DNA of 64,000 nt, taken from NCBI GenBank assembly GCA_041674405.1, contig JBAYVT010000004.1, forward strand, positions 74,599-138,598, read 5' to 3'. Shown here piece after piece: positions 12,300 through 59,098 of this stretch. Origin of the DNA: Patescibacteria group bacterium. Lineage in GTDB: Bacteria; Patescibacteriota; UBA1384; XYA2-FULL-43-10. The notes beneath the pieces are model-generated. The model was given only the letters and a program-made list of their open reading frames with translations, made no database searches and was not told where the DNA came from. Within the stretch, counting starts at the first letter, position 1; the number at the start of each line of letters is the position of its first letter. The position numbers and the translations under genes were made by a program.

Positions 12300-14549
12300 A
12301 TGTCAAAAGAATTCGCCAAAACCTGGGACTCGAAGAAGTTTGAAGAGGATTTATACCAAAACTGGGAAAAATCCGGCTATTTCAAGCCTGAATTGAACAT
12401 GCCCGAAAATCCAAAATATGATCGGGCGCTCGAAGGCAAACCATTCGTCATCCCAATTCCGCCGCCGAATGTCACCGGCAAGCTTCACATCGGCCATTCG
12501 TTATTCATCACAATTCAGGATGTCATGATCCGCTTCCATCGCATGCTTGGCGAGCCCACGCTTTGGATCCCCGGCACCGATCACGCCGGTATCGCTACGC
12601 AGACGGTCGTGGACAAAGCCTTACAAAAAAAGGGAATTAAGCGCCACGAAATTGGCCGTGAGAAATTTGTCGAAGAAGTTTGGAAGTGGAAAGAAGAATA
12701 CGGCGGTATTATCACCTCACAACTCAAACGAATGGGTGCTTCCTGCGACTGGTCGCGCGAGCGTTTTACCCTCGACGAAGGTTTATCCAAAGCTGTGAAA
12801 GAGGCATTTGTCCACCTATACGAGAAGGGATTGATCTACCGCGGCGAATATATCGTCAATTGGTGCCCGAAATGCGGCACGGCGATCGCGGATGACGAGA
12901 TGGAGCACGAAGAACAAACCGCAAAATTGTACTATTTCAAATACGACAAAAACTTTCCGATCACCATAGCAACTACCCGGCCAGAAACCAAACTTGGAGA
13001 TACGGCTGTGGCGGTCAATCCAACCGACAAGCGTTATGAGCAGTACATTGGCAAAGAATTCGATGTTGATATCGATGGCGTTAAGCGCAAGATCAAAATT
13101 GTTGCCGATCGCTCTATTGATATGAAATTCGGTACCGGCGCAGTCGGAATTACGCCTGCACACTCGGCTATCGACTGGAAAATCGGTGAAGTTAATGATC
13201 TTCCGATTGTCAAAGTCATCGACGAACGAGCAAAAATGACCGCCGAGGCCGGCAAATACGAGGGAATGAAGGTGCTCGAAGCCCGAGAAAAACTAGTTGA
13301 ATATCTGAAAGGCGAAACACTCCTGGAAAAAGAGGAGCCGATCACAAATAATTTGAGCGTCTGCTACCGCTGCAACACGGCTATAGAGCCGATTCCGTCT
13401 CTACAGTGGTTTGTGAGTATGCGCCCACTGGCAGAAAAAGCTAAAGCGGCCGTAACCTCCGGCGCTATCAAAATTATCCCGAAAAGATTTGAGAAGAATT
13501 ACAATCAGTGGATGGACAATATCCGCGACTGGTGCATCTCCCGCCAGCTTTGGTGGGGACACAGAATCCCGGTTTGGTATCGCAAACAGGAAAATCTCAA
13601 ACCTCAAACCTCAAATCTCAAACCCGAAGACATCTATGTCGGAAAAGAACCGCCAGCTGATATTGAGAGTTGGATTCAAGACGAAGATGTGCTCGATACC
13701 TGGTTTTCCTCGGCGCTTTGGCCGTTTTCTTCACTTGGTTGGCCAGAGAAAACCAAAGATCTGCAGTATTTCTATCCGGCAACCGTTCTCGAAACCGGAT
13801 ATGACATTCTCTTTTTCTGGGTCGCCCGAATGGTAATGATGGGACTTGAGCTTACTGATTCGATTCCATTTGAGAATATTTACCTCCACGGCTTGGTTCG
13901 CGATGAGAAAAATAGAAAGATGTCCAAGTCTCTCGGCAATGCGCTCGATCCGCTCGATATGATCGATAAATACGGCACAGATGCTGTCCGGATGGGTCTT
14001 GTGGTCGGCACTACCCCCGGGCTTGATATTCCTGTGGGTGAGCACAAGCTTAAGAATTATCGCAATTTCTCGAACAAAATCTGGAATGCCTCGCGCTTCG
14101 TTTCTCTTCGAGTTTCCGAAGGTGATCTGGCCTCGGGAGAAATTGGAGATGAGAAAATCGAGAACTTAAATATCGACCAATCAATTTTAACCGACGCCGA
14201 CAAAAAAATTCTCGAAGCACACGAGGAAATCAAAAAGCGCGTGACAAAAGACCTCAAGGAGTTCAAATTCTCTGGCGCCGGCGAAGGGCTATATGAGTAT
14301 TTCTGGCACAATTTCTGCGATATCTACATAGAAGCTGCTAAAGGGCAGCTCCAAACTGAAGAACCGAAGAACCGAAGAACCGAAGAACATTCAGAAAACA
14401 CAAAAAAAATCCTGCTCAAAGTTCTGTCTGAATCTTTACAGATGCTGCATCCGTTCGTTCCTTATGTCACCGAAGCTGTCTGGCAGGAACTACGCGAAAT
14501 TTATCCAAAACTTTCCGAATCGATCATGATCTCCAAGTGGCCTATGTAA
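12300..14549 (+). CDS. valS: Valine--tRNA ligase (ValRS), a short form lacking the C-terminal coiled-coil, carrying two in-frame repeat inserts.
   Basis: Class I HIGH region PPPNVTGKLHIGHS, the KMSKS motif KMSKSLGN, a CP1 editing domain and zinc-knuckle cysteines. The inserts are ENLKPQTSNLKPED and EEPKNRRTEEH. Confidence 0.8.
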   Translation: MSKEFAKTWDSKKFEEDLYQNWEKSGYFKPELNMPENPKYDRALEGKPFVIPIPPPNVTGKLHIGHSLFITIQDVMIRFHRMLGEPTLWIPGTDHAGIATQTVVDKALQKKGIKRHEIGREKFVEEVWKWKEEYGGIITSQLKRMGASCDWSRERFTLDEGLSKAVKEAFVHLYEKGLIYRGEYIVNWCPKCGTAIADDEMEHEEQTAKLYYFKYDKNFPITIATTRPETKLGDTAVAVNPTDKRYEQYIGKEFDVDIDGVKRKIKIVADRSIDMKFGTGAVGITPAHSAIDWKIGEVNDLPIVKVIDERAKMTAEAGKYEGMKVLEAREKLVEYLKGETLLEKEEPITNNLSVCYRCNTAIEPIPSLQWFVSMRPLAEKAKAAVTSGAIKIIPKRFEKNYNQWMDNIRDWCISRQLWWGHRIPVWYRKQENLKPQTSNLKPEDIYVGKEPPADIESWIQDEDVLDTWFSSALWPFSSLGWPEKTKDLQYFYPATVLETGYDILFFWVARMVMMGLELTDSIPFENIYLHGLVRDEKNRKMSKSLGNALDPLDMIDKYGTDAVRMGLVVGTTPGLDIPVGEHKLKNYRNFSNKIWNASRFVSLRVSEGDLASGEIGDEKIENLNIDQSILTDADKKILEAHEEIKKRVTKDLKEFKFSGAGEGLYEYFWHNFCDIYIEAAKGQLQTEEPKNRRTEEHSENTKKILLKVLSESLQMLHPFVPYVTEAVWQELREIYPKLSESIMISKWPM
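13592..13625. repeat. Heptamer repeat (ACCTCAA-like), in frame in valS.
   Basis: aatctcaaacctcaaacctcaaatctcaaaccc. Confidence 0.8.
14358..14388. repeat. Octamer repeat (GAAGAACC) x about 3.5, in frame in valS.
   Basis: gaagaaccgaagaaccgaagaaccgaagaac. Its reverse complement also occurs in the intergenic repeat block at 6151-6187. Confidence 0.8.
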
Positions 14550-14590
14550 CATATGTTGCATTGACAAATTAATGTAACATATGTTACAAT
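14545..14590 (+). promoter_or_regulatory. Promoter (TTGACA, 17-18 nt spacer, TACAAT) sandwiched between and overlapped by two palindromic operator sites (TGTAACATATGTTrCA). This is the likely autoregulation site of the HTH-Doc operon.
   Basis: Palindrome 1 at 14545-14560 (15 of 16 bases symmetric; it overlaps the valS stop). Palindrome 2 at 14573-14588 is a perfect 16-bp palindrome and overlaps the -10 element. The centres are 28 bp apart. The -35 element TTGACA is at 14561-14566. Confidence 0.6.
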
Positions 14591-14599
14591 AAAATCGAA

Positions 14600-14851
14600 A
14601 TGCAACACGATTATGTTTCGACAATTGAAGCGGCAAAAATCACAGGTTTGAACAGAACCCAGATTTTTCGCTTGATCAAGGTGGGCAAACTCCCAGCCGC
14701 TCGTATTGGGCGCAATTATATCATCAAAAAAGATGATCTCGGAATTTTGACTGCAGAAATTACGCCAAAAGAGAAGAAAAACATCGAACACTCGGTAGAT
14801 AAGGTTTTTGAAGAGTATGGCGATGTGCTTAAAAAACTGGGGGAGGAATGA
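14600..14851 (+). CDS. Excisionase/MerR-family HTH DNA-binding protein, the putative antitoxin of the Doc toxin.
   Basis: ISTIEAAKITGLNRTQIFRLIKVGKLPAARIGRNYIIKKDDL matches the excisionase-family HTH pattern. Its stop overlaps the doc start as ATGA at 14848-14851. Confidence 0.65.
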   Translation: MQHDYVSTIEAAKITGLNRTQIFRLIKVGKLPAARIGRNYIIKKDDLGILTAEITPKEKKNIEHSVDKVFEEYGDVLKKLGEE

Positions 14852-15267
14852 TATTCCCAATCTCATTAAACGAGGTTGAGCTTATTTCTCACCGAATGGC
14901 AAAAGAAATGCTTCGCTGGAATGAACCAATTCCTGATTTCTCCACCCGCTATCCCAATGTGCTTGAATCTTGCCTATCTACACCATTTCAAACCTATAAT
15001 AAGCGAAATCTTTACCGCGGCCTTGTGCCACAAGCTGCAGCTTTGTTTTATCTGATGATTAAAAACCACCCGTTTCAGAATGGGAATAAAAGGGTGGCGA
15101 TCACGACTTTGTTCGTATTTTTATCGAAAAATGGCAAATGGATCCGCGTCGATTCGCAAGAACTATACAATCTCGCTGTCTGGGTAGCCGGCTCTCCGCC
15201 TGCTTTTCGTGAAGAAGTAGTTGCCGCAATTGAAAAATTCCTTAAGAAAAATATTGTTGATAAATAG
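14848..15267 (+). CDS. doc: Doc (death-on-curing) / Fic-family toxin.
   Basis: NHPFQNGNKRVAITTLFVF matches the Doc signature HxFx(D/N)GNKR. At 139 aa the size is right. Confidence 0.75.
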   Translation: MIFPISLNEVELISHRMAKEMLRWNEPIPDFSTRYPNVLESCLSTPFQTYNKRNLYRGLVPQAAALFYLMIKNHPFQNGNKRVAITTLFVFLSKNGKWIRVDSQELYNLAVWVAGSPPAFREEVVAAIEKFLKKNIVDK

Positions 15268-15430
15268 AAATTTCAGTATGTGCAAAAAATGCACATATAG
15301 ATTAGTCAATTCTACAATGGATAATATCTTAGTTATTTCCATTTTGAAAAACACCTGAAATATCAAACGTAAAACTTGACAAAATTTTATCAGCTGTTAA
15401 AGTATGAACAATTTAGTCTCTGGAATTATC

Positions 15431-15616: not shown

Positions 15617-16639
15617 GTGGTAAACACGAGTGAGGTTGTCGGTAAGTCCGAGTGTGCGCGGATCATTTCAGAAATGATCCGGCCCGAGTCAGCGTCTGGA
15701 AAGATGCTGTACCGCGATCAAGACGAGATTCTCTCAATGCTCGAATCCGGACATAGCACGTTCATCCGAGATGGCGCCGGTATGCCGGTGTCATTCTGCG
15801 GCTTCTATGAGTTCGACCAATACATCGAGGTCGGCTCTACGATCACGAATCCGGAATTTCGCGGGCGTGGGCTTGCCACCGAGTGCCTTTACCGGGTGCT
15901 GGATGCCATTCAGTGTTCCGGGAAGGAGATAGTGGCATTCTGCAACGATGGCTCAGCTGGTCTCTTTGCGAAAGCCGGATTCAGCGAACGGCCAAAGGCC
16001 GAGATGCCGGACGAAGCGCTAGCTTTTTGCGCAGACTGTGCGGAGAGCCAAACATTCCCAGGATGTCACTGCCGCTACATGGTATTTGGGCATCGAGTTG
16101 TGCAGGGAAGGGGCGTCTGGCACACGATCATCGAAGACCCGGCAGGCGGCCAGCTTAAAAAGGTGGCAGAGCTTTACTGCCAAGTCTGGGCGGAGCCGCC
16201 TTGGGACGAGTACGACTGGGATCTGGCCGAGGTTGAGACCGAACTTAGTGAAGCGTCAAGTGATCCAGCAACGGCATTCTTTGTGAGTATGGTCCGTGGA
16301 GAAGTCAACGGCTTCACCATAGGCTACCCGATGGACAAGACGGCGCTTGCGGCGAAAGCCGGAGGAGAACAACTTGGCCATCTGTGCGAAGATCGCAGGC
16401 AGGTCTTCTATGTGGCCGAACTGGGAGTGGCGAAAGAATCCCGGTGCCATGGCACGGGAATCATGCTATCAGAGCTACTCTCTGCCAGGGCAAGGTCTCT
16501 CGGGTACAGCCGGCTGATCCTGCGTACTCACATAAAGGCCGCCCCCGCCAGGGCGTTGTATGCCAGGCTGGGGTTTGTCGATACCGGCATTCCTGACGCA
16601 AACTACCCCGATCGCACATACTGGGTTTACGACGAATAG
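15617..16639 (+). CDS. Tandem-GNAT N-acetyltransferase (two GNAT domains joined by a Cys/His-containing linker), in GC-rich cassette D.
   Basis: GNAT motif-A-like blocks in both halves (EFRGRGLATECL...; ESRCHGTGIMLSELL...). The linker contains CADCAESQTFPGCHC. The sequence is strongly GC-rich compared with its flanks. Confidence 0.65.
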   Translation: MVNTSEVVGKSECARIISEMIRPESASGKMLYRDQDEILSMLESGHSTFIRDGAGMPVSFCGFYEFDQYIEVGSTITNPEFRGRGLATECLYRVLDAIQCSGKEIVAFCNDGSAGLFAKAGFSERPKAEMPDEALAFCADCAESQTFPGCHCRYMVFGHRVVQGRGVWHTIIEDPAGGQLKKVAELYCQVWAEPPWDEYDWDLAEVETELSEASSDPATAFFVSMVRGEVNGFTIGYPMDKTALAAKAGGEQLGHLCEDRRQVFYVAELGVAKESRCHGTGIMLSELLSARARSLGYSRLILRTHIKAAPARALYARLGFVDTGIPDANYPDRTYWVYDE

Positions 16640-16709
16640 CGCAAGGTACGAACATCCAGCCGAGCGGGCAAAAACCCGCTCGGCCAGCATTCATAAATTA
16701 AGGAGAAAA

Positions 16710-17777
16710 ATGGATCTGGAAATCTTAAAAAAGTTAGTAGAGTTTGACACAAGATCGGAAAATACGAATTTGCCGCTAATTTATTATTGCCAAAAGAAAT
16801 TTGAAGAGTATGGTTTTGAAACGCGAATATGGGGAAAGGACAACAAAGCAAATTTATTTGCATTCAAGCCTGCTTATGGCAGTAGAATTGTACTTTCGGC
16901 GCATACCGACACCGTCCCGCCCGGCGAAGGTTGGAATTCGGACCCATTCAAGCTTGAACAAAATGAAGATTCGATAATTGGGTTGGGTATTGCCGACATG
17001 AAAATTTTTATTGCGATCATGCTTAAATTGGCTCAAGCTAATTTAGCCAAAAATTTAGCCTTTCTTCTAACTTACAACGAAGAAACCGATTTCGAAGGGG
17101 CAAAATTAATTGATAGAAAAATTATCGGCAAAAGCGATTATTTAATCATTGGAGAACCGACTGGCGGGAAGATTATTACAAATTCTAAGGGTCTTGTCGC
17201 ATATGAGCTGGAATTGACCGGAAAAGGAGGCCACGGAAGCGAACCGGAAAATGGAGTCTCCAGCATATTAGACTCATCAAAATTTATTTTAGAATTGTCG
17301 AAAGGATTTAAAGAAATTCAAGAAAAAAACAAAGATGATTCATTTGTAAATCCACTGCCTACTTTGAATTTTGGCACAATTTCTGGCGGAGAAGCTATAA
17401 ACAGCATACCGGTTGGGACAAATTTGTCGTTTGAAATCAGAACCACAAATGCAGCAGTTGAAAAAATATTTAATGAACTAATCAAAAAGACATCCAAATC
17501 TTTAAAATCCTCAGTAAGTTTCACGAAAAAAATATCGCTGAATCCGTTCGTGTCTTCTGGTAAAGTGGTAAAAATTATCAAAAAATCTGGGTTGCCTGTC
17601 GAAAAAGGGCCATCATACGCCACAGAGGCTAATATTTTGGCGGATATATGTCCAAATGCTGTTATCTTTGGGCCAGGGGAGATTAAATACGCACATAAAG
17701 AGAATGAGAAAATCAGTTTCAAAGGGATTGTTAAATACAAAAAAGATTTGACATATCTGATTAGTGTGTTAAAGTAA
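16710..17777 (+). CDS. M20-family metallopeptidase/deacylase (ArgE/DapE/acetylornithine-deacetylase-like).
   Basis: LSAHTDTVPPGEGW, GIADMKIFIAIML (the GxADxK region) and NEETDFEGAKL (catalytic Glu-Glu/Asp) are visible. The start is taken at MDLEIL, preceded by the RBS AAGGAG. The tabulated ORF start at 16560 lies inside the previous gene. Confidence 0.7.
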   Translation: MDLEILKKLVEFDTRSENTNLPLIYYCQKKFEEYGFETRIWGKDNKANLFAFKPAYGSRIVLSAHTDTVPPGEGWNSDPFKLEQNEDSIIGLGIADMKIFIAIMLKLAQANLAKNLAFLLTYNEETDFEGAKLIDRKIIGKSDYLIIGEPTGGKIITNSKGLVAYELELTGKGGHGSEPENGVSSILDSSKFILELSKGFKEIQEKNKDDSFVNPLPTLNFGTISGGEAINSIPVGTNLSFEIRTTNAAVEKIFNELIKKTSKSLKSSVSFTKKISLNPFVSSGKVVKIIKKSGLPVEKGPSYATEANILADICPNAVIFGPGEIKYAHKENEKISFKGIVKYKKDLTYLISVLK

Positions 17778-17926
17778 GATCAAACTTAGCAGTTAAGTTT
17801 AAATTTATGGAATCACAAATGCACAAAATTTATTTTACTTGCGGTACCGATCGAGTTAAGACCTGCGGCATTTTTGATGGTTCCAAATTATTGATCTAAT
17901 AATTTTCTAAAACTATACATCAAAAA

Positions 17927-17951
17927 GCCGCCGGTCCATGGGCGGTTTTTT
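17927..17951 (+). terminator. Weak hairpin followed by T6. Possible terminator after the M20 gene.
   Basis: ccgcc-ggtccatg-ggcgg followed by tttttt. Confidence 0.35.
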
Positions 17952-18031
17952 GATTTTCTTGTGCTCTTAAAGTCGAGAAGGGCACAAGCGCAGTCAAACT
18001 AATTGCCCCATGGGGCAGAAAGGAAAGAAAA

Positions 18032-18703
18032 ATGTACGGTCCGAAAATCAAATTCGCGTACGATCGAGGGGAAAAGAGCGGGGGAAGAGTTGAGGTCGAG
18101 CTTGGCTCGCCGGCTGACGAGGTCGTTGCTGCCAAACAATTCACTGAGTGGATCAACGACAATCGGATTCGCCTATACCTGGCGACTCCGGCGCCGTGCA
18201 CGGAAAGTGCTGAGATGGATTGGGTGAAGAACCAAAACAACCGGCCAGACGACCTGTCGTGGAATATCATGATTGAAGGCGAGATGGTCGGCAATATCGG
18301 TTTGCATCGTATTGACCGAACGCATCGCCGTGCCGAACTCGGTATTATGATCGGCGACAAGAAACGCTGGGGGAAGGGATTAGCCCAGGCGTTGGAGGCG
18401 GTAATTCTCGACTACGCCTTTTCAAACATTGTCGCCGGAGGCCTGAATAAGGTCGCAGCCGAGGTCCTTGACGGCAACGAACCGAGCCGTGCAGCAATCA
18501 AGAAATGCGGCTTCCGCGATGTAGCAGTGCGCCGAGAGCATTTCTGGTTCTTCGGTCGATGGTACGATGCCTGGGAAGGCGAGATCTTGGCCTCCGAGTG
18601 GTCAAAAAATCGCGCCAAGGTGATGAAAGCCGTGGGGATCAAGTATCTTGACCTCTACTGCGGCTGCGCTTCAGAAGGCTTCACGCCCGAGAAATTCGAC
18701 TAG
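18032..18703 (+). CDS. GNAT-family N-acetyltransferase of RimJ/RimL type, in GC-rich cassette E.
   Basis: NIGLHRIDRTHRRAELGIMIGDKKRWGKGLAQAL... and a conserved RimL-like C-terminal half. A 12-bp perfect palindrome GCCCCATGGGGC lies immediately upstream of the RBS. Confidence 0.65.
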   Translation: MYGPKIKFAYDRGEKSGGRVEVELGSPADEVVAAKQFTEWINDNRIRLYLATPAPCTESAEMDWVKNQNNRPDDLSWNIMIEGEMVGNIGLHRIDRTHRRAELGIMIGDKKRWGKGLAQALEAVILDYAFSNIVAGGLNKVAAEVLDGNEPSRAAIKKCGFRDVAVRREHFWFFGRWYDAWEGEILASEWSKNRAKVMKAVGIKYLDLYCGCASEGFTPEKFD

Positions 18704-18773: not shown

Positions 18774-19397
18774 ATGATAACTGCACTTATCGATATTCTT
18801 GCAAATTTTGTTGTGAATACTATTCATGTTCTGGGCGCTCCAGGACTATTTTTCTTAATGTTTATCGAATCCTGTGGGATTCCGATGCCCTCCGAGGTTA
18901 TAATGCCATTCTCGGGCTTTCTGGTGGCCGACCATGTGATGAACTTCTGGCTTGTTGTCGTTGTTGGCGCACTCGGGAACCTTGCAGGTTCTTTATTGGC
19001 CTACTGGATTGGTTGGCGAGGCGGCCGTCCACTTATCGAAAAATATGGCAAATATATCTTGATCTCCAAGCATGATCTTGATCGCGCTGACGTCTGGTTT
19101 CAAAAATACGGCGATGCAACAACTTTTGTCGGGAGGATTTTGCCTATCGTTCGCACCTACATTTCATTTCCTGCGGGGATTTCGAAAATGGAGATCAAAA
19201 AATTTTCATTTTACACATTTATCGGAGCTCTTATTTGGAGTGCGGCGCTTACTTGGGGAGGGGTTATTCTTGGCGAGAATTGGGAATTGATTCGGGCAAA
19301 ATTGCACACTTTCGATACGGCAATATTGATCATAATTATTGTCCTGATTGCACTTTATATATATCGGCATATTCGCAATATCAAAAAGGCAAATTAG
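18774..19397 (+). CDS. DedA/SNARE-associated (TVP38-like) family membrane protein.
   Basis: LFFLMFIESCGIPMPSEVIMPFSGFLV... plus the rest of the DedA core and TM helices. Confidence 0.7.
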   Translation: MITALIDILANFVVNTIHVLGAPGLFFLMFIESCGIPMPSEVIMPFSGFLVADHVMNFWLVVVVGALGNLAGSLLAYWIGWRGGRPLIEKYGKYILISKHDLDRADVWFQKYGDATTFVGRILPIVRTYISFPAGISKMEIKKFSFYTFIGALIWSAALTWGGVILGENWELIRAKLHTFDTAILIIIIVLIALYIYRHIRNIKKAN

Positions 19398-29964: not shown

Positions 29965-30819
29965 CTACGCATAGCGCTCGACCATCATCTTCATGTTGGC
30001 GAGGAACCACGCCATGTGGTCCTGCACGGCCGAGGGCGTGCCCAGCTTGGGCTTGTACTCGGCAACGAAGTTGATCTCGGCCGGCCGGTTGGCCGCCGAG
30101 AGAAGGTTCTCCACGATCGTGTGTGACCCGCTGTCCGTCACCGATTTCACGTGCACGGCGGCGACGTACGGCGCGAGGACCTTCACGGCCTCGTGTCGCT
30201 CGGTGCGAGTGGCGCCCAAGACAGAGCTGTCTTCGGCGGCGTTGCGATCGGCGCGAAGGAGATGCTCTGTGTCGATGACCAGCCTGCATCCCTCGTCCCG
30301 GCAGTACCGAGCAATCGTGTTGGCGGCCAGTCGATCATCAGGGTTCACCTCGTAGAGGCCGTTGGCCGCAAGGTGGTGGCTGATGTTCTCGCCGGGAAGA
30401 AGTGCCTCCACCTTTCGGCACTCGGCGATCTTCGGGAAGAACGCCCAGTCGATCGGTGTGGAAGGCATGCCCTCACCGCCGATCTGGTGGCGGAGACCCT
30501 GGAGAAGCCCGTTCACCGGGTTCCAGGCGCCTTCGTGGTACTTGACCGGCAGCGGCCAGTTCTCCCTTCCGGTTACCCCACGAAGGGGGAGAACCTGCAG
30601 GAATTCGTAGCCAGCCTTCTGGGCCCACTTGGCCGCCATCATCGGCGAGCCATGCGCCCAGAGTGCCGTCCTCATAGCATACGGCAACAGAGACGCGATC
30701 GAAATACCGTAACCGAACACATTGGGAGTCCGTCGCAAGCTAATCACCCGTTTCTTGCCCCCATGGGACATATTTGATATTCTTGGGTCATGCCCCACGG
30801 CACCGTAACAATATAACAC
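29965..30819 (-). CDS. Hypothetical protein (284 aa) in GC-rich cassette F, possibly TIM-barrel-like. Function not identified.
   Basis: Long open frame with a plausible composition. The real start may be MSHGG (30768). The plus-strand ORFs overlapping it are Arg-rich and look like artefacts. Confidence 0.4.
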   Translation of the reverse strand: MLYCYGAVGHDPRISNMSHGGKKRVISLRRTPNVFGYGISIASLLPYAMRTALWAHGSPMMAAKWAQKAGYEFLQVLPLRGVTGRENWPLPVKYHEGAWNPVNGLLQGLRHQIGGEGMPSTPIDWAFFPKIAECRKVEALLPGENISHHLAANGLYEVNPDDRLAANTIARYCRDEGCRLVIDTEHLLRADRNAAEDSSVLGATRTERHEAVKVLAPYVAAVHVKSVTDSGSHTIVENLLSAANRPAEINFVAEYKPKLGTPSAVQDHMAWFLANMKMMVERYA

Positions 30820-30846
30820 AAATCACTAATAAAGTCAAGGACATTT

Positions 30847-32406
30847 ATGCCAGAACTTAAGCGTGTGAGCAAGCCTACCAAGGATCAAAAAGCTAAAAAT
30901 GCCAAATTTAAGATCTCAATCTCGTATCCGCCTCTTCCTAGTGAGAAAGGCATCCCTCTTCTTACCCAGAATCGCCAATTTCAATGGTTCAACAACCCAA
31001 CGTATATCTATCCGATGGTGCCTTCGTATGCAGCCTCACTTCTGGCCGATCAAGGCTATGACGTGCTCTGGGACGATGCCATTGCCGAGGAGCTCACGCC
31101 GGAATCCTGGCTTCTTAGAATCAAGAAATCCAATCCCAACCTGATAGTGTTTGAATCTAAAACCCCGGTAATTAAGCGACACTGGAAACTTATTGAAGTT
31201 ATGAAAAAAGAGCTTCCCAAGGCGACTATCGCCCTGATCGGCGATCATGTGACTGCGATGCCGGAAGAATCGATGAAAAACTCGAAGGTTGATTATGTTC
31301 TTACGGGCGGAGATTATGATTTTCTGGCATTAAACCTAGCGAATCATCTAAATCATGGTGAGAAACTCGAGGCAGGGATTTGGTACCGTGAAGGGAAAAC
31401 CATTAAAAATACCGGGCATTTTGAGCTTAATCATGATCTTGACGATCTTCCGATGATCGATCGTGATCTCACCAAATGGCAGCTGTACGCTTACAAGAAT
31501 GGTAATTACAAAAGAACACCAGGCACATACACATATGCTGCACGTGACTGCTGGTGGGGCAAATGTGCATTTTGTTCCTGGACGACTCTCTATCCGGGTA
31601 AGGATTATCGCAAACATTCGGCCAGGAGGATGCTCGACGAGATCGGCATCTTGATTGAGAAATATCATGTCAAGGAGATCATGGATGATTCGGGCTCTTT
31701 TCCGATCGGCACATGGCTAACGGAGTTCTGCAATGGCATGATCGAGCGTGGCTACAACAAGAAAATCCGTCTTGATATAAATATGAGGCTAAAGGGGCTT
31801 AAACAAGAAGATTACGATCTTATGGGCAAGGCCGGGATCAGGTTTATCCTGTACGGACTTGAGTCGGCAAACCAGAATACGCTTGATCGAATCCAGAAAA
31901 ATTTGAAGGTAGAGGAAATCGAAAAAGGCGTTAGAATGGCGAAAAAGGGTGGACTGGAGCCTCATATCACTACCATGATGGGTTATCCGTGGGAAACGCG
32001 TGAAGACGCCGAACGAACTGTGGCTCTTGCGAGACATCTATTCAATAAAGGTTATGTTGACACTCTGCAAGCCACTATAGTGATCCCGTATCCAGGCACG
32101 CCACTCTATCGCGAATGCAAGGAAAACGGCTGGTTGGCGACTGAGGATTGGGATAATTTCGATCAGCGCATGGCGGTGATGAAATCACCCTTGACCGAGA
32201 AAGATATCAAAGAACTGACCCAAGAGCTATATAAGTCATTCATGACTCCCCGGTTTGTCATGCGAAAGATTGCTTCGGTGCGAAGCTGGTCTGATGTTAC
32301 TTTCCTTTTCCGTGCTGCTGGCAAGGTAATCGGCCACCTCATTGACTTCTCTCCCAAGAATAAACAAAATTGCGAGTGCGAGGAAAAGGCAGAACACGAA
32401 GCATAG
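30847..32406 (+). CDS. B12-binding-domain radical SAM enzyme (class B-like) with a non-canonical Cx4Cx2C cluster motif.
   Basis: N-terminal B12-binding-like Rossmann region (...LIVFESKTPVIKRHWKLIEVMKKELPKATIALIGDHVTA...). The radical SAM core is ARDCWWGKCAFCSW; the codons were checked and the spacing is C-x4-C-x2-C. A TIM-barrel region follows (...FILYGLESANQNTL...). Confidence 0.65.
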   Translation: MPELKRVSKPTKDQKAKNAKFKISISYPPLPSEKGIPLLTQNRQFQWFNNPTYIYPMVPSYAASLLADQGYDVLWDDAIAEELTPESWLLRIKKSNPNLIVFESKTPVIKRHWKLIEVMKKELPKATIALIGDHVTAMPEESMKNSKVDYVLTGGDYDFLALNLANHLNHGEKLEAGIWYREGKTIKNTGHFELNHDLDDLPMIDRDLTKWQLYAYKNGNYKRTPGTYTYAARDCWWGKCAFCSWTTLYPGKDYRKHSARRMLDEIGILIEKYHVKEIMDDSGSFPIGTWLTEFCNGMIERGYNKKIRLDINMRLKGLKQEDYDLMGKAGIRFILYGLESANQNTLDRIQKNLKVEEIEKGVRMAKKGGLEPHITTMMGYPWETREDAERTVALARHLFNKGYVDTLQATIVIPYPGTPLYRECKENGWLATEDWDNFDQRMAVMKSPLTEKDIKELTQELYKSFMTPRFVMRKIASVRSWSDVTFLFRAAGKVIGHLIDFSPKNKQNCECEEKAEHEA

Positions 32407-55452: not shown

Positions 55453-56569
55453 TGGGCGCTTTATTGGCGTGGGCGAATCTATCTCCCGCTACACGCTTGA
55501 AATAGTTCAAGGCATCTTAAAATTGGATCAAGAGCACGAATACACTCTCTTAATCCGCCCGCAAGGCGAAAAGTTTATAGCTGACAACTTACAGCTGAAA
55601 GCTAAAAATTTTCGTACAAAAGTTTTAGATATTCCTCACTACAGCTTCAAAGAGCAAACAGAGCTTCTCAAATATTTAAATTCTGAAAAATTTGATCTTG
55701 TGCACTTTACCCAATTTAACCATCCGATTCGTTACAAAGGAAATTATGTGATCTCGGTGCATGACCTAACCCTTCTTGGGCATCTGCATCGCATGAATAT
55801 TGTAAAAAGGCTGGGGTTTCGGGCTGTTATGAAGTCGGCAATAATGGATTCAAGAAAAATTATTACAATTTCGAACACAACCAAGGACGATCTTGTTGAA
55901 ACATATAGGATTGATCCGGACAAAATTGCTATTACATACCTCGGCGTTGACAACAAGTATAATTCAAATTTCAAATCTCAATCCGCCAGCTGGCGGACAA
56001 AAATTAGGGATTTTAAAGAAAAGTATAAGACGGGAGAGAAATACATTCTCTATACAGGAATGTGGAAGCGGCACAAGAATCTTCTGCGTATGTTCGATGC
56101 TTTCGAGCGAGCGAAACTTTCTGATGTAAAGCTTGTGCTGGTCGGCAAAATTGATAAAGAAGAGCCGGAAATCTTGAAACGAATTGATGAAATCAATTCC
56201 AAGCAAAAAATTATTGTAACGACCGGATTTGTTGAGGAGGAGGAACTTCCCATTGCTTATGCTGGGGCAGTAGCTTATTGCATTCCCTCGCTCTCCGAGG
56301 GGTTCGGCCTTCCACCACTCGAGGCAATGGCTTGTGGTACGCCTGTAATTTCTTCAGCAGTATCGGCGATGCCGGAAATTCTCGGCAAGGCGGCGTTCTA
56401 CTTCGACCCGTACGATATTGAAGATATGTCGATGGCGATGAAAACAATCGTCGAAGATGAAAAATTGCAAAAAGAACTATCGCAAAAGGGGTTGAAGTGG
56501 GTAGCGCGCTACGATTGGGAGAAGACCGCAAAAGAAACTCTGGATGTGTACAAAAGTTTATTGAAATAA
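55436..56569 (+). CDS. GT4 (GT-B fold) glycosyltransferase.
   Basis: C-terminal [20 protein letters not shown], the E-x7-E region of retaining GT4 enzymes. Confidence 0.75.
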
Positions 56570-56574
56570 TTGTT

Positions 56575-56618
56575 CTCATAAACGCGAAAACGCCGCAGAT
56601 CGTACTGATCCGCGGCGT
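56575..56618 (-). terminator. Terminator for the minus-strand lipoprotein gene.
   Basis: 12-bp stem with one mismatch (acgccgcagatc / gatccgcggcgt) and loop gtact. On the minus strand it is followed by uuucgcguuu. Confidence 0.55.
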
Positions 56619-56644
56619 CCTCGGTGATACCCTCCATGGCGTGT

Positions 56645-57394
56645 CTACTTCTTGGGGCTTGTCCTCGCCAAGTCCGCGTTGTAGACCCGTTCGATGGCTT
56701 GGCTGTCCGCTTCGCCGTCTCGGATGTTGATTTCCTTCGGCCAGGGCTTTATCTTCCAGTGATTGCCCTGGTAGCCGTCGGAGATGGCCAGCCAAAGGTG
56801 CTCGCCCTGGCGAATGCCCATCGGGTAGTTGGGTCCAGCCAGCGCCAGGTCCTCCCATACAGCATCCGAGAGCTTCTGCTCGACTTCCAGCTTGATGCCG
56901 TCGAGAGTTCCCGAACCGATGACCAGACTTTGCTGCCTCCCGAGATGATGTAGCACAACGGTGACTTGGCCTTCTGGATTGTTGGGGGGCGGCAGCGGAG
57001 TGCCGGGCGCTACCCCGGGGACCGCCGTGTTGCTGACCGGAGTGATGGTGATTTCGGTGTACTGCACGCCATCACTCGAGGTGGTGCCCACGGGGTAAAT
57101 CTTGACCGAAGGCACATTCCAGATCTCCATGAGCCCCTGCATCACAGGGCCAAGGTTCGTCCAGTTCGGGTCTCTGGTGGCGAATAGCGCCATTCCTTCG
57201 TTGTAGTCAAGGAGACCGCTTGCCCCGTGATGCGTGACGTCGTTCAGGTTCTCGATCTTGTGCAAGGACGATGCCGACATCGCTGTGGTAGACGCGGTGT
57301 TGCTGCCGGTATTGGTGCAGCCGGCAATCAACAACGCTAGCAGCAGAATCACGAGCAAAGACAACGGAACGTTTCTCACAAGAATCCCTCCCAA
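56645..57394 (-). CDS. Lipoprotein (249 aa) in GC-rich cassette G. It is a paralog of the next gene.
   Basis: Lipobox LLALLIAGC. It shares ...TLDG[IL]... and the overall pattern with the 285-aa neighbour. Confidence 0.55.
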   Translation of the reverse strand: MGGILVRNVPLSLLVILLLALLIAGCTNTGSNTASTTAMSASSLHKIENLNDVTHHGASGLLDYNEGMALFATRDPNWTNLGPVMQGLMEIWNVPSVKIYPVGTTSSDGVQYTEITITPVSNTAVPGVAPGTPLPPPNNPEGQVTVVLHHLGRQQSLVIGSGTLDGIKLEVEQKLSDAVWEDLALAGPNYPMGIRQGEHLWLAISDGYQGNHWKIKPWPKEINIRDGEADSQAIERVYNADLARTSPKK

Positions 57395-57536
57395 AGTTTC
57401 AGCCCCGCCTTGGAGGCGGGCTGTATGGCTGCGGAATCAGAATATCCGAGCGGGCTGCCCCGCACCACATGAGTGGGGGACGGCACCGCTTGGTGCTAGC
57501 CTCAATGAGACTAACCAAGCACAAGTTGTAGGGTTC

Positions 57537-58394
57537 CTAGTCCGGCTGGCCCTTGGGGTCGTACCGCGGCGTCGACGGGGGTTGTGCCGCGAACTGGACC
57601 TCGGCGTGCTCAGTTGCGAGCTTGTTGCCTTTGGTATCCAGATTCGACCAGGTGATCTTGGCGTAGACCGCCTTGACACCCCAGTACGCCTTGAGGTCTC
57701 TGACGGCATCCCCGAAACCCGCAAGCTGGGGATCCTGGGAGACCCAGTCAGCAAAGCGCGTACTGAGCGTCTTGCCGTCTACGAAGCTGAATCCGCCCTG
57801 GGACAAGCTCTTGTCTGCGATCAGCGCTTGCCGATCATGGGTTGCGAGCTTGGATTCCAGGTTGGACTCGGCCACTGATGCCAGAAAGGCCCTCTCGATA
57901 GCCTCGGGGTACGTCTCGGTCAGGCCGACCTTGACCTTCTCTGGCCACGAGCAGAGGTTCCAGGTGGGATCGCCCATCCGCCAGACGGAAACCTCGGCGA
58001 ACCAGAACTGGTCACCCCTAACGATCCCAAGACCCGAGTACGCCCAGTGTTCCATGTCCTTGTTGACCTTCGCCAAGATCGACTTGTCGCCGATCGTGAG
58101 CGAAAGGCCGTCCAGCGTGGCCGGGGAATTCATGGTTTCCCTGGTGCCAAACTTGTACAGCACCAGAGTCACCGGACCATCGGGGTTGTCAGCCGGCCGA
58201 GTGCTTGCCGGCATCTCGGGGACGACCTTGAGGGTCACTTCGGGAGCCTCAGCCTTTTCGGTCGTGCAGCCGGGCATCCAGACTACCATCATGACAGCGA
58301 TCGCGGTCATGATGAACTTCAGAATATGCTTCACGGGAATCCCTCCATGGTAGTCAGTCACGCTTGGGGGCGTGCTGTTGTTGTCGGATAGCAA
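57537..58394 (-). CDS. Lipoprotein (about 257-285 aa) in GC-rich cassette G.
   Basis: Lipobox VVWMPGC. The start may be the internal MTAIAV (58310). Confidence 0.5.
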   Translation of the reverse strand: MLSDNNSTPPSVTDYHGGIPVKHILKFIMTAIAVMMVVWMPGCTTEKAEAPEVTLKVVPEMPASTRPADNPDGPVTLVLYKFGTRETMNSPATLDGLSLTIGDKSILAKVNKDMEHWAYSGLGIVRGDQFWFAEVSVWRMGDPTWNLCSWPEKVKVGLTETYPEAIERAFLASVAESNLESKLATHDRQALIADKSLSQGGFSFVDGKTLSTRFADWVSQDPQLAGFGDAVRDLKAYWGVKAVYAKITWSNLDTKGNKLATEHAEVQFAAQPPSTPRYDPKGQPD

Positions 58395-58684
58395 TCTCCG
58401 AGCGGGATGGCGCCAATCGCGAAGATTGAAGCGCCGACTCCGCTTGGGCCGACCAAAGTCGGTTTGGGCTCAATTCTACTTGTGGCTAAGCATCATGTGG
58501 CAAATCGCTCCGATGAAGAGGAGTAGGCCACCGGTGCCAGCAACCAGCAGGTCATTTATTACATGCATTACTGCGTCCATGTGTGTGCTCCTCCTGTACT
58601 GTAATCATTCGAGCAGTCTCGCTCGGCACCCTTGTGGGATGCTGAGCGGGAACTGCGCAAGTGAATGCGCGTGATGGCCAAGGG

Positions 58685-59098
58685 CTAGCCCCAGCCGTCC
58701 AAAACCGGGAAAGTGTAGGTCGCGATGACCTTGCCATCCTTGTGTGCGATGGCAGTGCACATGCCAGGCGCCTGGAAGACCCAGTTCTTGCCTGTTGGGA
58801 GGATGATGGCCCCCTTGCCATCCGTCCCCTCGGTGACCGTGATCTGCGCATCGACGCCCCCCTGGGGGCTCGGCGTGCCGATCTCCCTTGAGGCGACTAC
58901 GTAGAAGTCGGTAGGGACTGTGATGGCCGTCTCGGTCGCCGGGCGCCAGACGTGATCTGTGGAGGCCCAGATCTGCATCTGGATGTGATACTGGGGAGCT
59001 GTCGGCATGGGGCTGCCGCCACCGGCGCAGCCGGCGAGCACGACAGTCAGGAGTACGGCAATCACGAACCAGCAAAACGACGAAATCTGCTTCAACAT
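58685..59098 (-). CDS. Lipoprotein (about 137 aa) in GC-rich cassette G.
   Basis: The start is taken at MLKQISSFCWFVIAVLLTVVLAGC (lipobox LAGC). Confidence 0.5.
   Translation of the reverse strand: MLKQISSFCWFVIAVLLTVVLAGCAGGGSPMPTAPQYHIQMQIWASTDHVWRPATETAITVPTDFYVVASREIGTPSPQGGVDAQITVTEGTDGKGAIILPTGKNWVFQAPGMCTAIAHKDGKVIATYTFPVLDGWG

What the first reader, a model, noticed from the sequence alone, without database searches (positions are those of the whole stretch)
14545..15267. A Doc toxin is paired with an excisionase-family HTH antitoxin rather than Phd, under a promoter overlapped by two near-perfect palindromic operators
The downstream gene has the Doc signature (HPFQNGNKR). The upstream partner is an 83-aa excisionase/MerR-type HTH, not Phd/YefM, and the two are ATGA-coupled. 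Two copies of TGTAACATATGTTrCA are centred 28 bp apart; the second is a perfect 16-bp palindrome and overlaps the -10 element TACAAT. The TTGACA -35 element lies between them. This is the arrangement expected for autorepression by the antitoxin or the complex. The TSS would fall within a few nucleotides of the ATG, giving a near-leaderless mRNA. An HTH_Xis-Doc pairing is an uncommon TA architecture.
Basis: partly seen in the sequence, partly recalled or inferred. Interest (0 to 1): 0.6.

Follow-up and report, generated by a model that had tools for sequence, protein, structure and literature searches.

The report
Doc toxin with excisionase-type antitoxin
This is a two-gene toxin-antitoxin cassette in which a Doc kinase toxin is paired with a small excisionase-like DNA-binding antitoxin; the pairing has apparently not been described in the literature I could search, but it is widespread and well conserved in uncultured bacteria.

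Summary
An 83-aa HTH_17/excisionase-type protein (14600-14851) overlaps by ATGA a 139-aa Doc toxin (14848-15267) that has an intact HPFQNGNKR motif. Two 16-bp palindromes, centred 28 bp apart, flank the -35 element and overlap the -10 element of a near-consensus promoter that ends 9 nt before the ATG.

The interpretation also holds, and comparison with relatives extends it.
- Starting from Doc, 78 of 80 related genome loci from at least 8 phyla carry the same ~85-aa HTH gene directly upstream.
- Starting from the antitoxin, 76 of 80 metagenome loci have Doc directly downstream. The other 4 are cut by a contig end.
- The operator is conserved (core AACnnnnGTT, about 43-fold enriched upstream). 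So are the 28-29 bp site spacing and the -10 element lying inside a half-site.
- Recognition-helix residues co-vary with half-site bases in three classes.
- The antitoxin tail weakly resembles the Doc-binding helix of AbrB-type "doc_partner" antitoxins (PDB 9VZC).

The pairing is therefore not rare in nature. It is absent from PLSDB plasmids, from the TA surveys I read and from curated antitoxin models. I rate it a new variant of a known kind, of moderate interest. Toxicity, neutralisation and DNA binding remain untested.

The parts
14545..14560 (.). Operator site 1, TGTAACATATGTTGCA. It has one mismatch from a perfect palindrome, contains the valS stop codon, and abuts the -35 element.
   Evidence: In relatives this position usually keeps only the promoter-proximal half-site (ATGTTGCA or ATGTTAAC) next to TTGACA.
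14561..14566 (+). -35 hexamer TTGACA
   Evidence: TTGAC(A/T) lies 17-18 nt upstream of an operator-embedded -10 element in about 40 related loci.
14573..14588 (.). Operator site 2, TGTAACATATGTTACA, a perfect 16-bp palindrome that overlaps the -10 element.
   Evidence: Identical or nearly identical sites sit at the same offset (-27 from the ATG) in L003, L005-L007 and L083. The family-wide core AACnnnnGTT is enriched about 43-fold upstream.
14582..14590 (+). Extended -10 element, TGtTACAAT
   Evidence: In relatives the -10 element is TAAC(C/A)T inside the GTTAAC half-site.
14600..14851 (+). Antitoxin gene, 83 aa. Residues 5-47 form an Xis/MerR-type winged HTH. Residues 50-55 are a linker. Residues 56-82 form a helix predicted to bind Doc.
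   Evidence: Family searches. AlphaFold2 model. Fold search. Tail similarity to doc_partner.
14657..14677 (+). Codons for the predicted recognition-helix core T20-Q-I-F-R-L-I26; the preceding Arg19 (14654-14656) completes the R-T-Q-I-F-R-L motif
   Evidence: Residues of this helix co-vary with half-site positions 2-3 across about 150 loci.
14848..15267 (+). Doc toxin gene, 139 aa. Its start overlaps the antitoxin stop (ATGA).
   Evidence: Family and sequence evidence. The model's best fold matches are P1 Doc in 3DD7 and 3K33.
15067..15093 (+). Doc catalytic motif HPFQNGNKR (residues 74-82)
   Evidence: Invariant in 17 of 17 relatives. Aligned to HIFNDANKR of P1 Doc and HCFYNANKR of EFDoc.

Best explanation
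This is a chromosomal type II toxin-antitoxin cassette with three working parts.

1. Toxin. The downstream protein is a Doc-type Fic-fold kinase. By homology it would phosphorylate EF-Tu and arrest translation.

2. Antitoxin. The upstream 83-aa protein is modular.
   - Its N-terminal Xis/MerR-type winged helix-turn-helix reads 6-bp half-sites (TGTAAC) arranged as 16-bp palindromes.
   - Its C-terminal segment (residues ~56-82) is probably disordered when free. It would fold as a helix into the Doc groove and neutralise the toxin, as the tails of Phd and of the AbrB-type 'doc_partner' do.

3. Control region. Two operators centred 28 bp apart bracket the -35 element and cover the -10 element. 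Bound antitoxin, or antitoxin-Doc complex, would therefore shut off its own promoter. Transcription would start 2-4 nt before the antitoxin ATG, giving a near-leaderless mRNA. Doc would be translated by coupling through the ATGA overlap.

Shown here by computation:
- the domain identities;
- the intact catalytic motif;
- obligate gene pairing in both directions;
- conservation of the operator, its spacing and its overlap with the promoter;
- covariation between the recognition helix and the operator.

Inferred, not shown:
- toxicity and the EF-Tu target;
- neutralisation by the C-terminal tail;
- dimeric binding to the palindromes;
- any bridging of the two sites by Doc (conditional cooperativity);
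- the position of the transcription start.
For: Domains:
- The antitoxin matches HTH_17 and TIGR01764 above their cut-offs, and Doc matches TIGR01550 at 52.9 bits against a cut-off of 38.65.
- All 79 aligned antitoxins hit HTH_17 and excise.
- HPFQNGNKR is invariant in relatives and aligns with the catalytic loops of P1 Doc and EFDoc.

Structure:
- In the antitoxin model, residues 5-47 form a beta-alpha-alpha-beta-beta winged HTH (pLDDT 77-87). Its best fold matches are Pukovnik Xis, BldC and RdfS. A low-confidence linker and a long helix (56-82) follow.
- The best fold matches of the Doc model are P1 Doc-Phd complexes.

Pairing:
- 78 of 80 Doc loci from Patescibacteria, Acidobacteriota, Omnitrophota, Planctomycetota, Nitrospirota, Elusimicrobia and other phyla have the ~85-aa HTH gene directly upstream, mostly with a 1-4 nt overlap.
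- 76 of 80 antitoxin-seeded metagenome loci have Doc directly downstream. 4 are cut by a contig end and none lacks Doc.

Operator:
- The core AACnnnnGTT occurs at 8.6 per kb in the 130 nt upstream against 0.2 per kb elsewhere in the same loci. It is present in 70 of 78 loci and in 66 of 77 loci of an independent set.
- Neighbouring full sites are 28 or 29 bp apart in 12 of 13 multi-site loci and in 9 of 13 site pairs.
- The -10 hexamer is TAAC(C/A)T inside a half-site, with TTGAC(A/T) 17 nt upstream.

Covariation:
- xTTAAC half-sites go with the helix S-R-(I/V/T)-(A/T/S)-x-(F/Y)-(K/N)-(K/R).
- xGTAAC half-sites go with S-R-(I/V)-(E/Q/H)-V-(Y/F)-R-x.
- TG(C/T)AAC half-sites go with R-T-Q-(V/I)-F-R-L.

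Tail:
- 16 of 79 antitoxins hit TIGR02609 doc_partner in the C-terminal register at E<0.1.
- hhalign aligns 21-23 C-terminal columns with a bona fide doc_partner, with P about 0.003.
- That doc_partner is homologous to 9VZC chain B (E 1.9e-14). Residues 52-79 of 9VZC chain B are the helix seen in the Doc groove (PMC13034048).
Against: - Nothing was tested experimentally. Toxicity, neutralisation, DNA binding and the transcription start are all inferred.
- The tail homology is weak. hhalign probability is only 9-10%, and neither Phd nor 9VZC chain B is found with the antitoxin profile at E<=10.
- The antitoxin model is of only moderate confidence (mean pLDDT 69.6), and the tail helix has pLDDT around 50.
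- The Doc model is mediocre (pLDDT 65), with residues 33-57 below 50.
- Xis and BldC-type domains usually bind head-to-tail on direct repeats, not as symmetric dimers. No dimerisation element was identified.
- In most relatives the half-site GTTAAC is itself palindromic, so its orientation is ambiguous there.
- The 28-bp spacing is about 2.7 helical turns. It is therefore not obvious how two bound dimers would contact each other.
Confidence: 0.8

Rival explanations
1. The HTH protein is a true excisionase (recombination directionality factor) of an integrated mobile element. The Fic/Doc gene would then be cargo, and the palindromes would be recombination or attachment sites rather than operators.
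For: The N-terminal domain scores as 'excisionase family' (TIGR01764). Its best structural matches are excisionases: Pukovnik Xis, RdfS and P2 Cox.
Against: - There is no integrase or phage gene among the ORFs within about 8 kb. The neighbours are a Mur ligase, FemAB, TsaD, ValRS, GNATs, an M20 peptidase and a VTT-domain protein.
- The partner is Doc in 154 of 154 checkable loci, across many unrelated contexts.
- The sites always lie over the cassette's own promoter.
- A conserved C-terminal extension, absent from excisionases, resembles Doc-antitoxin tails.
- A scan of IMG/VR viral contigs found nothing.
Confidence: 0.03
2. The two palindromes act mainly at the RNA level. Together they would form a 3' stem-loop that ends or stabilises the valS transcript, and their position over a promoter-like sequence would be incidental.
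For: As RNA, 14545-14588 folds into a 20-bp hairpin of -24.2 kcal/mol, with z = -6.7 against shuffles. The valS stop codon lies inside it.
Against: - No U-tract follows the hairpin.
- Any pair of identical palindromes will fold like this.
- The same motif travels with the cassette into contexts that lack valS.
- The motif often occurs as lone half-sites that cannot form a hairpin.
- Its bases co-vary with the HTH recognition helix.
- In the close relative L083 the left half of site 1 is degenerate, while site 2 and the promoter are intact.
Confidence: 0.05
3. The pair is a regulator plus Fic-fold enzyme with a non-toxic or different role, such as reversible modification of a target other than EF-Tu, or phage defence by abortive infection. 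It would not be a classical addiction or stress toxin-antitoxin module.
For: - Doc is unusually conserved, at 57-80% identity across at least 8 phyla. This suggests strong constraint.
- The Doc domain resembles the C-terminal domains of candidate defence proteins PDC-S23 and PDC-S05.
- Residues 26-48 form an extra invariant block, EPIPDF..R..N.LESC..PFQ. It has no counterpart in the P1 Doc alignment.
Against: - The catalytic loop is the Doc type (NKR), not the AMPylating Fic type (GNGR).
- The architecture is that of a type II TA: a small antitoxin gene first, an overlapping toxin gene, and an autoregulatory operator.
- The distribution is patchy and multi-phylum, as is typical of mobile TA cassettes.
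- The PADLOC hits are at domain level only.
Confidence: 0.1

Closest known systems
Phd-Doc of bacteriophage P1 (PDB 3K33, 3DD7)
   Same: - The toxin has the same fold and the same catalytic loop: HPFQNGNKR against HIFNDANKR.
- The gene order is antitoxin first.
- Two palindromic operator sites lie at the operon's own promoter. PMC13034048 describes the two-site arrangement in the canonical (E. coli/P1) Phd-Doc system.
- The antitoxin is neutralising through a C-terminal helix. This is established for Phd and inferred here.
   Different: - The antitoxin DNA-binding domain is an Xis/MerR-type winged HTH, not the Phd/YefM fold. There is no PF02604 hit.
- There is no detectable sequence similarity to Phd.
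- Doc is only about 23% identical.
AbrB/MazE-type 'doc_partner'-Doc systems: TasAB of B. thuringiensis pGI1 (PMC1626090), E. faecalis EFPhd-EFDoc, PDB 9VZC (PMC13034048), and NCBIfam TIGR02609
   Same: - EFDoc is the closest solved Doc by sequence (9vzc_A, E 2.9e-7).
- The antitoxin tails share a motif in the same C-terminal register: K.IE.SVDKVFEEYGDVLKKL here against DEIDVAISQALTEYDTTFRELV.
- That register corresponds to the crystallised Doc-binding helix, EFPhd residues 52-79 (PMC13034048).
   Different: - The N-terminal DNA-binding domain is a winged HTH instead of a swapped-hairpin beta domain.
- The whole-protein score against TIGR02609 is 14.7 bits, against a cut-off of 55.9.
- EFPhd recognises a single palindrome. 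This family typically has two or three sites, phased at 28-29 bp.
Truncated-MerR HTH antitoxins paired with PIN toxins (Makarova et al. 2009, PMC2701414)
   Same: The same general class of small MerR/excisionase-like HTH domain is used as the DNA-binding module of a type II antitoxin.
   Different: - The toxin there is a PIN nuclease, not Doc.
- That survey lists AbrB, Xre, YhfG and PHD as Fic/Doc partners, but not MerR.
- In those proteins the extra small domain is N-terminal. Here the toxin-binding segment is C-terminal.
Xis/BldC/RdfS family of small winged-helix DNA-binding proteins (PDB 4J2N, 6AMA, 8DGL)
   Same: The N-terminal 47-50 residues superpose with TM 0.74-0.79 (normalised to the target) and rmsd 1.6-2.1 A. 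The profile hit to 4J2N has E 0.0078.
   Different: - Those proteins act in recombination or development, and bind head-to-tail on direct repeats.
- This one carries a Doc-antitoxin tail and is always encoded with Doc.
- Its sites are inverted repeats over its own promoter.

Membership tests
Doc toxin family (TIGR01550 DOC_P1 / Pfam PF02661 Fic) | Profile score above the curated cut-off | tested here: met
   TIGR01550 scores 52.9 bits against 38.65. PF02661 scores 41.5 bits against 24.
Doc toxin family (TIGR01550 DOC_P1 / Pfam PF02661 Fic) | Doc-type catalytic loop HxFx(D/N)(A/G)NKR. The motif definition is taken from my own knowledge of the Doc literature. | tested here: met
   HPFQNGNKR is at residues 74-82. 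It is invariant in 17 of 17 relatives and aligns with HIFNDANKR of P1 Doc and HCFYNANKR of EFDoc.
Doc toxin family (TIGR01550 DOC_P1 / Pfam PF02661 Fic) | Fic/Doc all-helical fold | tested here: met
   The AlphaFold2 model (pLDDT 65) matches P1 Doc best: 3dd7_A and 3k33_A, probability 1.00, TM 0.56-0.65. Fic proteins come next. The model quality limits the weight of this result.
Doc toxin family (TIGR01550 DOC_P1 / Pfam PF02661 Fic) | Kinase activity on EF-Tu and growth arrest | not testable with these tools
   Needs expression and biochemical assays.
Type II toxin-antitoxin system | Two-gene operon with a small antitoxin gene first, adjacent to or overlapping the toxin gene, and with the pairing conserved | tested here: met
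   ATGA overlap in the window. The pairing holds in 78 of 80 Doc-seeded loci and 76 of 76 checkable antitoxin-seeded loci.
Type II toxin-antitoxin system | The antitoxin binds an operator at its own promoter (autoregulation) | tested here: inconclusive
   The comparative support is strong: conserved palindromes over the -10 and -35 elements, and helix/half-site covariation. Binding and repression themselves were not measured.
Type II toxin-antitoxin system | The antitoxin neutralises the toxin by direct binding | not testable with these tools
   There are only indirect indications. These are a conserved C-terminal helix and weak similarity to the Doc-binding tail of doc_partner and EFPhd.
Phd/YefM antitoxin family (PF02604) | Profile match to the Phd/YefM domain | tested here: not met
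   No PF02604 hit at E<=1. No Phd chain was found with the family profile at E<=10.
TIGR02609 doc_partner (AbrB-type Doc antidote) | Whole-protein score above the cut-off, and an AbrB/SpoVT N-terminal domain | tested here: not met
   14.7 bits against 55.9, covering only residues 41-80. The N-terminus is HTH_17. The C-terminal similarity alone is suggestive.
Excisionase / recombination directionality factor | Xis-type winged-helix DNA-binding domain | tested here: met
   TIGR01764 scores 36.3 bits against 28.8. Fold matches are to 4J2N, 8DGL and 4LHF.
Excisionase / recombination directionality factor | Encoded with an integrase in a mobile element and acting at att sites | tested here: not met
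   No integrase among the ORFs within about 8 kb. The constant neighbour across about 150 loci is Doc.

The most novel reading that the evidence does not exclude
The cassette may represent an unrecognised regulatory architecture for toxin-antitoxin systems. In this reading, an Xis/BldC-type antitoxin assembles on arrays of 6-bp sites phased at 10 and 18-19 bp (a 28-29 bp period), with the promoter's -10 element built into a site. Doc would act as the bridging co-repressor. The unusually conserved Doc (57-80% identity across at least 8 phyla, with an extra invariant N-terminal block) might also have a target or role beyond classical EF-Tu poisoning, for example abortive-infection defence in ultra-small bacteria.
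Probability: 0.15. Interest if true: 0.55.

Novelty: new variant of a known kind. Interest (0 to 1): 0.38.

Why it matters
- It adds a fourth DNA-binding scaffold, the Xis/MerR-type winged HTH, to the known partners of Doc (Phd, AbrB, Xre/YhfG).
- It gives a clean example of antitoxin modularity. The toxin-binding tail appears to be kept while the DNA-binding head is exchanged.
- The family is large, is confined mostly to uncultured lineages including the Candidate Phyla Radiation, and carries its own compact promoter-operator.
- The three-class covariation between the recognition helix and the half-site is a ready-made, testable protein-DNA recognition code.
- For annotation, the upstream gene is currently named 'excisionase family DNA-binding protein' or 'helix-turn-helix domain-containing protein'. 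It should be called a Doc antitoxin, and no curated antitoxin model covers it.

Tried and rejected
- Protein searches:
  - The word-indexed search with the antitoxin alone gave only 13 relatives. The family became visible only through the Doc-seeded genome scan.
  - The last protein-database search, seeded with the Enterococcus doc_partner, returned only close Enterococcus relatives. The profile-profile test of tail homology therefore stayed weak, at probability 9-10%.
  - The antitoxin profile found no Phd, EFPhd or other antitoxin in the PDB, and the single sequence found nothing.
- Collection scans:
It was repeated with A3.
  - The viral-contig scan found nothing.
  - PLSDB plasmids hold only distant Docs (under 35% identity) and no antitoxin relative.
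- Operator spacing: a centre-to-centre analysis built on half-sites was confounded because GTTAAC is its own reverse complement. I relied instead on the spacing of full sites.
- PADLOC gave only domain-level hits.
- Rfam and the tRNA scan of the whole window were empty.
- Literature: searches for excisionase, HTH_17 or MerR together with Doc found no description of this pairing. Three TA surveys do not list it. Subscription-only papers and the TA databases (TADB, TASmania) could not be checked.
- I considered and rejected reading the G-rich run GGGGAGGA (14840-14847) as a good Shine-Dalgarno sequence for Doc. It ends directly at the ATG, so translational coupling is more likely.

Full report
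**1. The observation**

The region reads exactly as described.
- ORF A (14600-14851, +, 83 aa) and ORF B (14848-15267, +, 139 aa) overlap in ATGA.
- Upstream, TGTAACATATGTTGCA (14545-14560) and the perfect palindrome TGTAACATATGTTACA (14573-14588) are centred 28 bp apart.
- They are the only matches in the 64-kb window with 3 or fewer mismatches. The expectation is 0.26, and 5 of 100 shuffles gave 2 or more.
- A near-consensus promoter lies across them: TTGACA at 14561-14566, an 18-nt spacer, and TACAAT at 14585-14590, preceded by TG (11 of 12 positions).
- The -35 element abuts site 1, and the -10 element lies in the right arm of site 2.
- The ATG at 14600 is the first start codon after the in-frame TAA at 14570-14572. 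It lies 9 nt after the -10 element, so a transcript from this promoter would have a leader of about 2-4 nt.
- The stop codon of the upstream valyl-tRNA synthetase gene (12300-14549; Pfam tRNA-synt_1) sits inside site 1.

**2. Domain identities**

Antitoxin (ORF A):
- It passes the curated thresholds of Pfam HTH_17 (34.4 against 27 bits) and TIGR01764 'excisionase family DNA-binding protein' (36.3 against 28.8). It has no Phd/YefM match.
- An AlphaFold2 model gives a beta-alpha-alpha-beta-beta winged helix for residues 5-47 (pLDDT 77-87). A low-confidence linker (50-55) follows, then one long helix (56-82, pLDDT around 50).
- The best structural matches of the N-terminal domain are mycobacteriophage Pukovnik Xis, BldC, the RdfS excisionase, RacA and P2 Cox. 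TM is 0.74-0.79 over about 47-50 residues, with rmsd 1.6-2.1 A.

Toxin (ORF B):
- It passes TIGR01550 DOC_P1 (52.9 against 38.65 bits) and Pfam Fic.
- Its loop HPFQNGNKR aligns with HIFNDANKR of P1 Doc and HCFYNANKR of E. faecalis Doc. The loop is invariant in 17 relatives.
- A moderate-quality model (pLDDT 65) matches P1 Doc-Phd complexes best.
- The catalytic motif is therefore not degenerate.

**3. Is the pairing conserved?**

- The organism is a Patescibacteria MAG. A 100% identical antitoxin carries that name.
- The antitoxin alone retrieved only 13 relatives in the word-indexed search. Doc retrieved 5930, many of them 60-92% identical.
The best 80 span Patescibacteria, Acidobacteriota/Aminicenantes, Omnitrophota, Planctomycetota, Nitrospirota, Elusimicrobia, Margulisbacteria and others, at 57-77% Doc identity.
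- In 78 of these 80 loci the gene directly upstream is an 83-92 aa protein of the same design, mostly overlapping Doc by 1-4 nt. One exception is cut by the contig end, and one looks frameshifted.
- All 79 aligned antitoxins hit HTH_17 and TIGR01764.
- The antitoxins diverge faster than Doc: 34-46% identity to the window's protein, against 57-69% for Doc.
- In the reverse direction, a metagenome scan seeded with the antitoxin confirmed 402 loci. Of the best 80, 76 have Doc immediately downstream, 4 end at a contig edge, and none lacks Doc.
- An exhaustive profile search of 1.84 billion representatives gave 331 clusters at E<=1e-10. About 100 of the top 150 were full-length 83-93 aa matches.

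**4. The operator**

The 90-130 nt upstream of the antitoxin gene carry a conserved palindrome in nearly all loci.
- Most lineages have GTTAACATATGTTAAC. The window's sub-clade has TG(C/T)AACATATGTTACA.
- The core AACnnnnGTT occurs 88 times in 10.3 kb of upstream DNA (8.6 per kb), against 83 times in 419 kb of the remaining locus DNA (0.2 per kb). It is present in 70 of 78 loci, and in 66 of 77 loci of the independent metagenome set.
- Where two or three full sites occur, neighbours are 28 or 29 bp apart in 12 of 13 loci and in 9 of 13 site pairs. The window's 28-bp spacing is thus a family feature.
- Lone half-sites are common. A typical case is ATGTTAAC or ATGTTGCA abutting the -35 element. 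The window's first full palindrome is a variant of this, completed by the end of valS.
- In about 40 loci with a recognisable sigma-70 promoter, the -10 hexamer is TAAC(C/A)T. That is part of a GTTAAC half-site, with TTGAC(A/T) exactly 16-18 nt upstream. TACAAT within GTTACAAT is the window's equivalent.

The predicted recognition helix co-varies with half-site positions 2-3.

| Half-site | Loci (genome set + metagenome set) | Helix |
|---|---|---|
| xTTAAC | about 60 (of the 71 proteins with this helix) + 44 | S-R-(I/V/T)-(A/T/S)-x-(F/Y)-(K/N)-(K/R) |
| xGTAAC | 17 (metagenome set) | S-R-(I/V)-(E/Q/H)-V-(Y/F)-R-x |
| TG(C/T)AAC | 8 + 3 | R-T-Q-(V/I)-F-R-L |

The window's protein (N-R-T-Q-I-F-R-L) has TGTAAC half-sites and belongs to the third class. 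This is the pattern expected if this protein reads this DNA. It is also hard to reconcile with an RNA-level role.

As RNA, the two palindromes would pair into a 20-bp hairpin (-24.2 kcal/mol, z = -6.7). That follows automatically from two copies of a palindrome. There is no U-tract after it, and the hairpin would exist only in valS read-through transcripts. A secondary role at the valS 3' end is possible but not needed.

**5. The antitoxin tail**

- The C-terminal 25 residues are the best-conserved part of the family: K.EID.AVKKTV.EYGEVLKLLG.E.
- Sixteen of 79 members hit TIGR02609 'doc_partner', the AbrB-type Doc antidote, in the matching C-terminal register at E<0.1.
- An Enterococcus plasmid antitoxin is a bona fide doc_partner (66.6 against 55.9 bits). 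It aligns over 21-23 C-terminal columns (DEIDVAISQALTEYDTTFRELV) with P about 0.003 but a probability of only 9-10%.
- That protein is homologous (E 1.9e-14) to chain B of PDB 9VZC. Residues 52-79 of that chain form the bent helix inserted into the concave face of E. faecalis Doc (PMC13034048).
- 9VZC chain A is also the closest solved relative of the window's Doc (E 2.9e-7).

The simplest reading is a modular antitoxin. A Doc-binding tail related to that of AbrB-type partners is fused to a different DNA-binding head. I rate this as suggestive, not shown.

**6. Expression signals**

- No locus from Patescibacteria (0 of 18) has an SD-like motif before the antitoxin. Nine of the 18 have 12 nt or fewer between the -10 element and the ATG. 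The spacing is 9 nt in five of the six Patescibacteria-labelled loci of the window's sub-clade (L002, L003, L005-L007); L001, which is titled only 'bacterium', has the same spacing, and no promoter was called in L004.
- In other phyla, leaders with GGAG-type motifs are usual.
- In this window only 14 of 43 long ORFs have an SD-like motif, and several have an extended -10 element just before the ATG. Near-leaderless expression is therefore plausible, but it is a habit of the genome rather than a special property of this operon.
- The G-rich run GGGGAGGA (14840-14847) ends directly at the Doc ATG. It also encodes the conserved LGEE end of the antitoxin. Translational coupling through ATGA is the likelier route to Doc synthesis.

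**7. Context**

- Neighbouring genes are housekeeping or metabolic: a Mur ligase, FemAB, TsaD and ValRS on one side, then GNAT, M20 peptidase, GNAT and a VTT-domain protein on the other. None is an integrase or a phage gene.
- A related contig (antitoxin 82% identical) has the cassette in the same place after valS, followed directly by the VTT-domain gene. The cassette is therefore inherited vertically at this site in the lineage.
- The window has about 3.4 kb of extra, higher-GC DNA downstream of the cassette.
- The family is absent from IMG/VR viral contigs. It is also absent from PLSDB plasmids, where Doc matches are under 35% identical and no antitoxin relative was found.

**8. Comparison with the literature**

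- Makarova et al. 2009 list AbrB, Xre, YhfG and PHD as partners of Fic/Doc. They found truncated-MerR HTH antitoxins only with PIN toxins (PMC2701414).
- Fico and Mahillon 2006 described the composite mazE-doc TasAB family and ten groups of other upstream partners of Doc homologues (PMC1626090).
- Leplae et al. 2011 report three antitoxin super-families for Doc, and mention neither MerR nor excisionase (PMC3141249).
- Full-text searches combining excisionase, HTH_17 or MerR with Doc found no description of this pairing.
- NCBIfam has no model for this antitoxin.
- Mix-and-match of antitoxin DNA-binding domains is a well-established principle. This is therefore a new variant of a known kind, not a new kind.

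**9. Verdict**

The cassette is a member of a large, conserved and apparently undescribed HTH_17-Doc toxin-antitoxin family.

New information from this analysis:
- the family's breadth;
- the conserved promoter-embedded operator with 28-29 bp phasing;
- the covariation between recognition helix and half-site;
- the possible shared Doc-binding tail.

Interest is moderate. A toxin-antitoxin specialist would not be surprised by the principle, but would gain a well-defined new family and a testable recognition code. All functional steps (toxicity, neutralisation, repression, transcription start) remain inferred.

Noticed in passing
window 15617-18703: About 3.4 kb of DNA lies between the TA cassette and the VTT/DedA-domain gene (18774-19397). 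It holds a tandem-GNAT protein (15617-16639), an M20 peptidase (16560-17777) and a GNAT protein (18032-18703), and its GC content reaches 0.52 against about 0.40 nearby. In the related contig L083 the VTT gene follows the cassette directly. This looks like a horizontally acquired insertion.
   Followed up: partly
window 15279-15297 and 15370-15414: Just downstream of the Doc stop codon there is an inverted repeat, ATGTGCAaaaaaTGCACAT. It is followed by a second promoter-like site: TTGACA at 15376, a 16-nt spacer, then TAAAGT, overlapped by palindromes. This may be a separately regulated promoter for the downstream GNAT gene.
   Followed up: no
window 14355-14390 (inside valS): An 8-nt unit (GAACCGAA) is repeated about 3.5 times in tandem within the ValRS coding sequence, encoding ...TEEPKNRRTEE.... 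The corresponding ValRS segment in relative L083 is quite different and longer, so this is a variable insertion region of the enzyme.
   Followed up: no
proteins P0201-P0220 and others, not in the window: The strongest hits of the antitoxin profile in the 1.84-billion-protein library are proteins of 160-711 aa made of 3-10 tandem HTH_17 domains. They match only the HTH part (query residues ~2-68, mostly ~2-55). I do not recognise this repeat-protein architecture.
   Followed up: no
whole window, e.g. upstream of 10356, 41548 and 29853 (- strand): Only 14 of 43 long ORFs have an SD-like motif. Several have an extended -10-like element (TGnTAnAAT) 6-11 nt before the ATG. This suggests that leaderless or short-leader mRNAs are common in this Patescibacteria genome.
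   Followed up: partly
window 30001-31000 and 56001-59000: Further GC-rich islands (0.58-0.60, against a background of about 0.40). They contain no rRNA, tRNA or Rfam match, so they are presumably acquired protein-coding DNA.
   Followed up: partly
Doc residues 26-48 (window 14923-14991): The block EPIPDF..R..N.LESC..PFQ is invariant or nearly so across phyla. It has no clear counterpart in the alignment with P1 Doc. It is also the least confidently modelled part of the protein (pLDDT 34-49). It may be a subfamily-specific surface for a substrate or for the antitoxin.
   Followed up: no
L083 2230-2838 (- strand): The related contig carries a 202-aa protein with a PhdYeFM_antitox hit about 1 kb downstream of the HTH-Doc cassette. 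This is unusually long for a Phd-type antitoxin.
   Followed up: no
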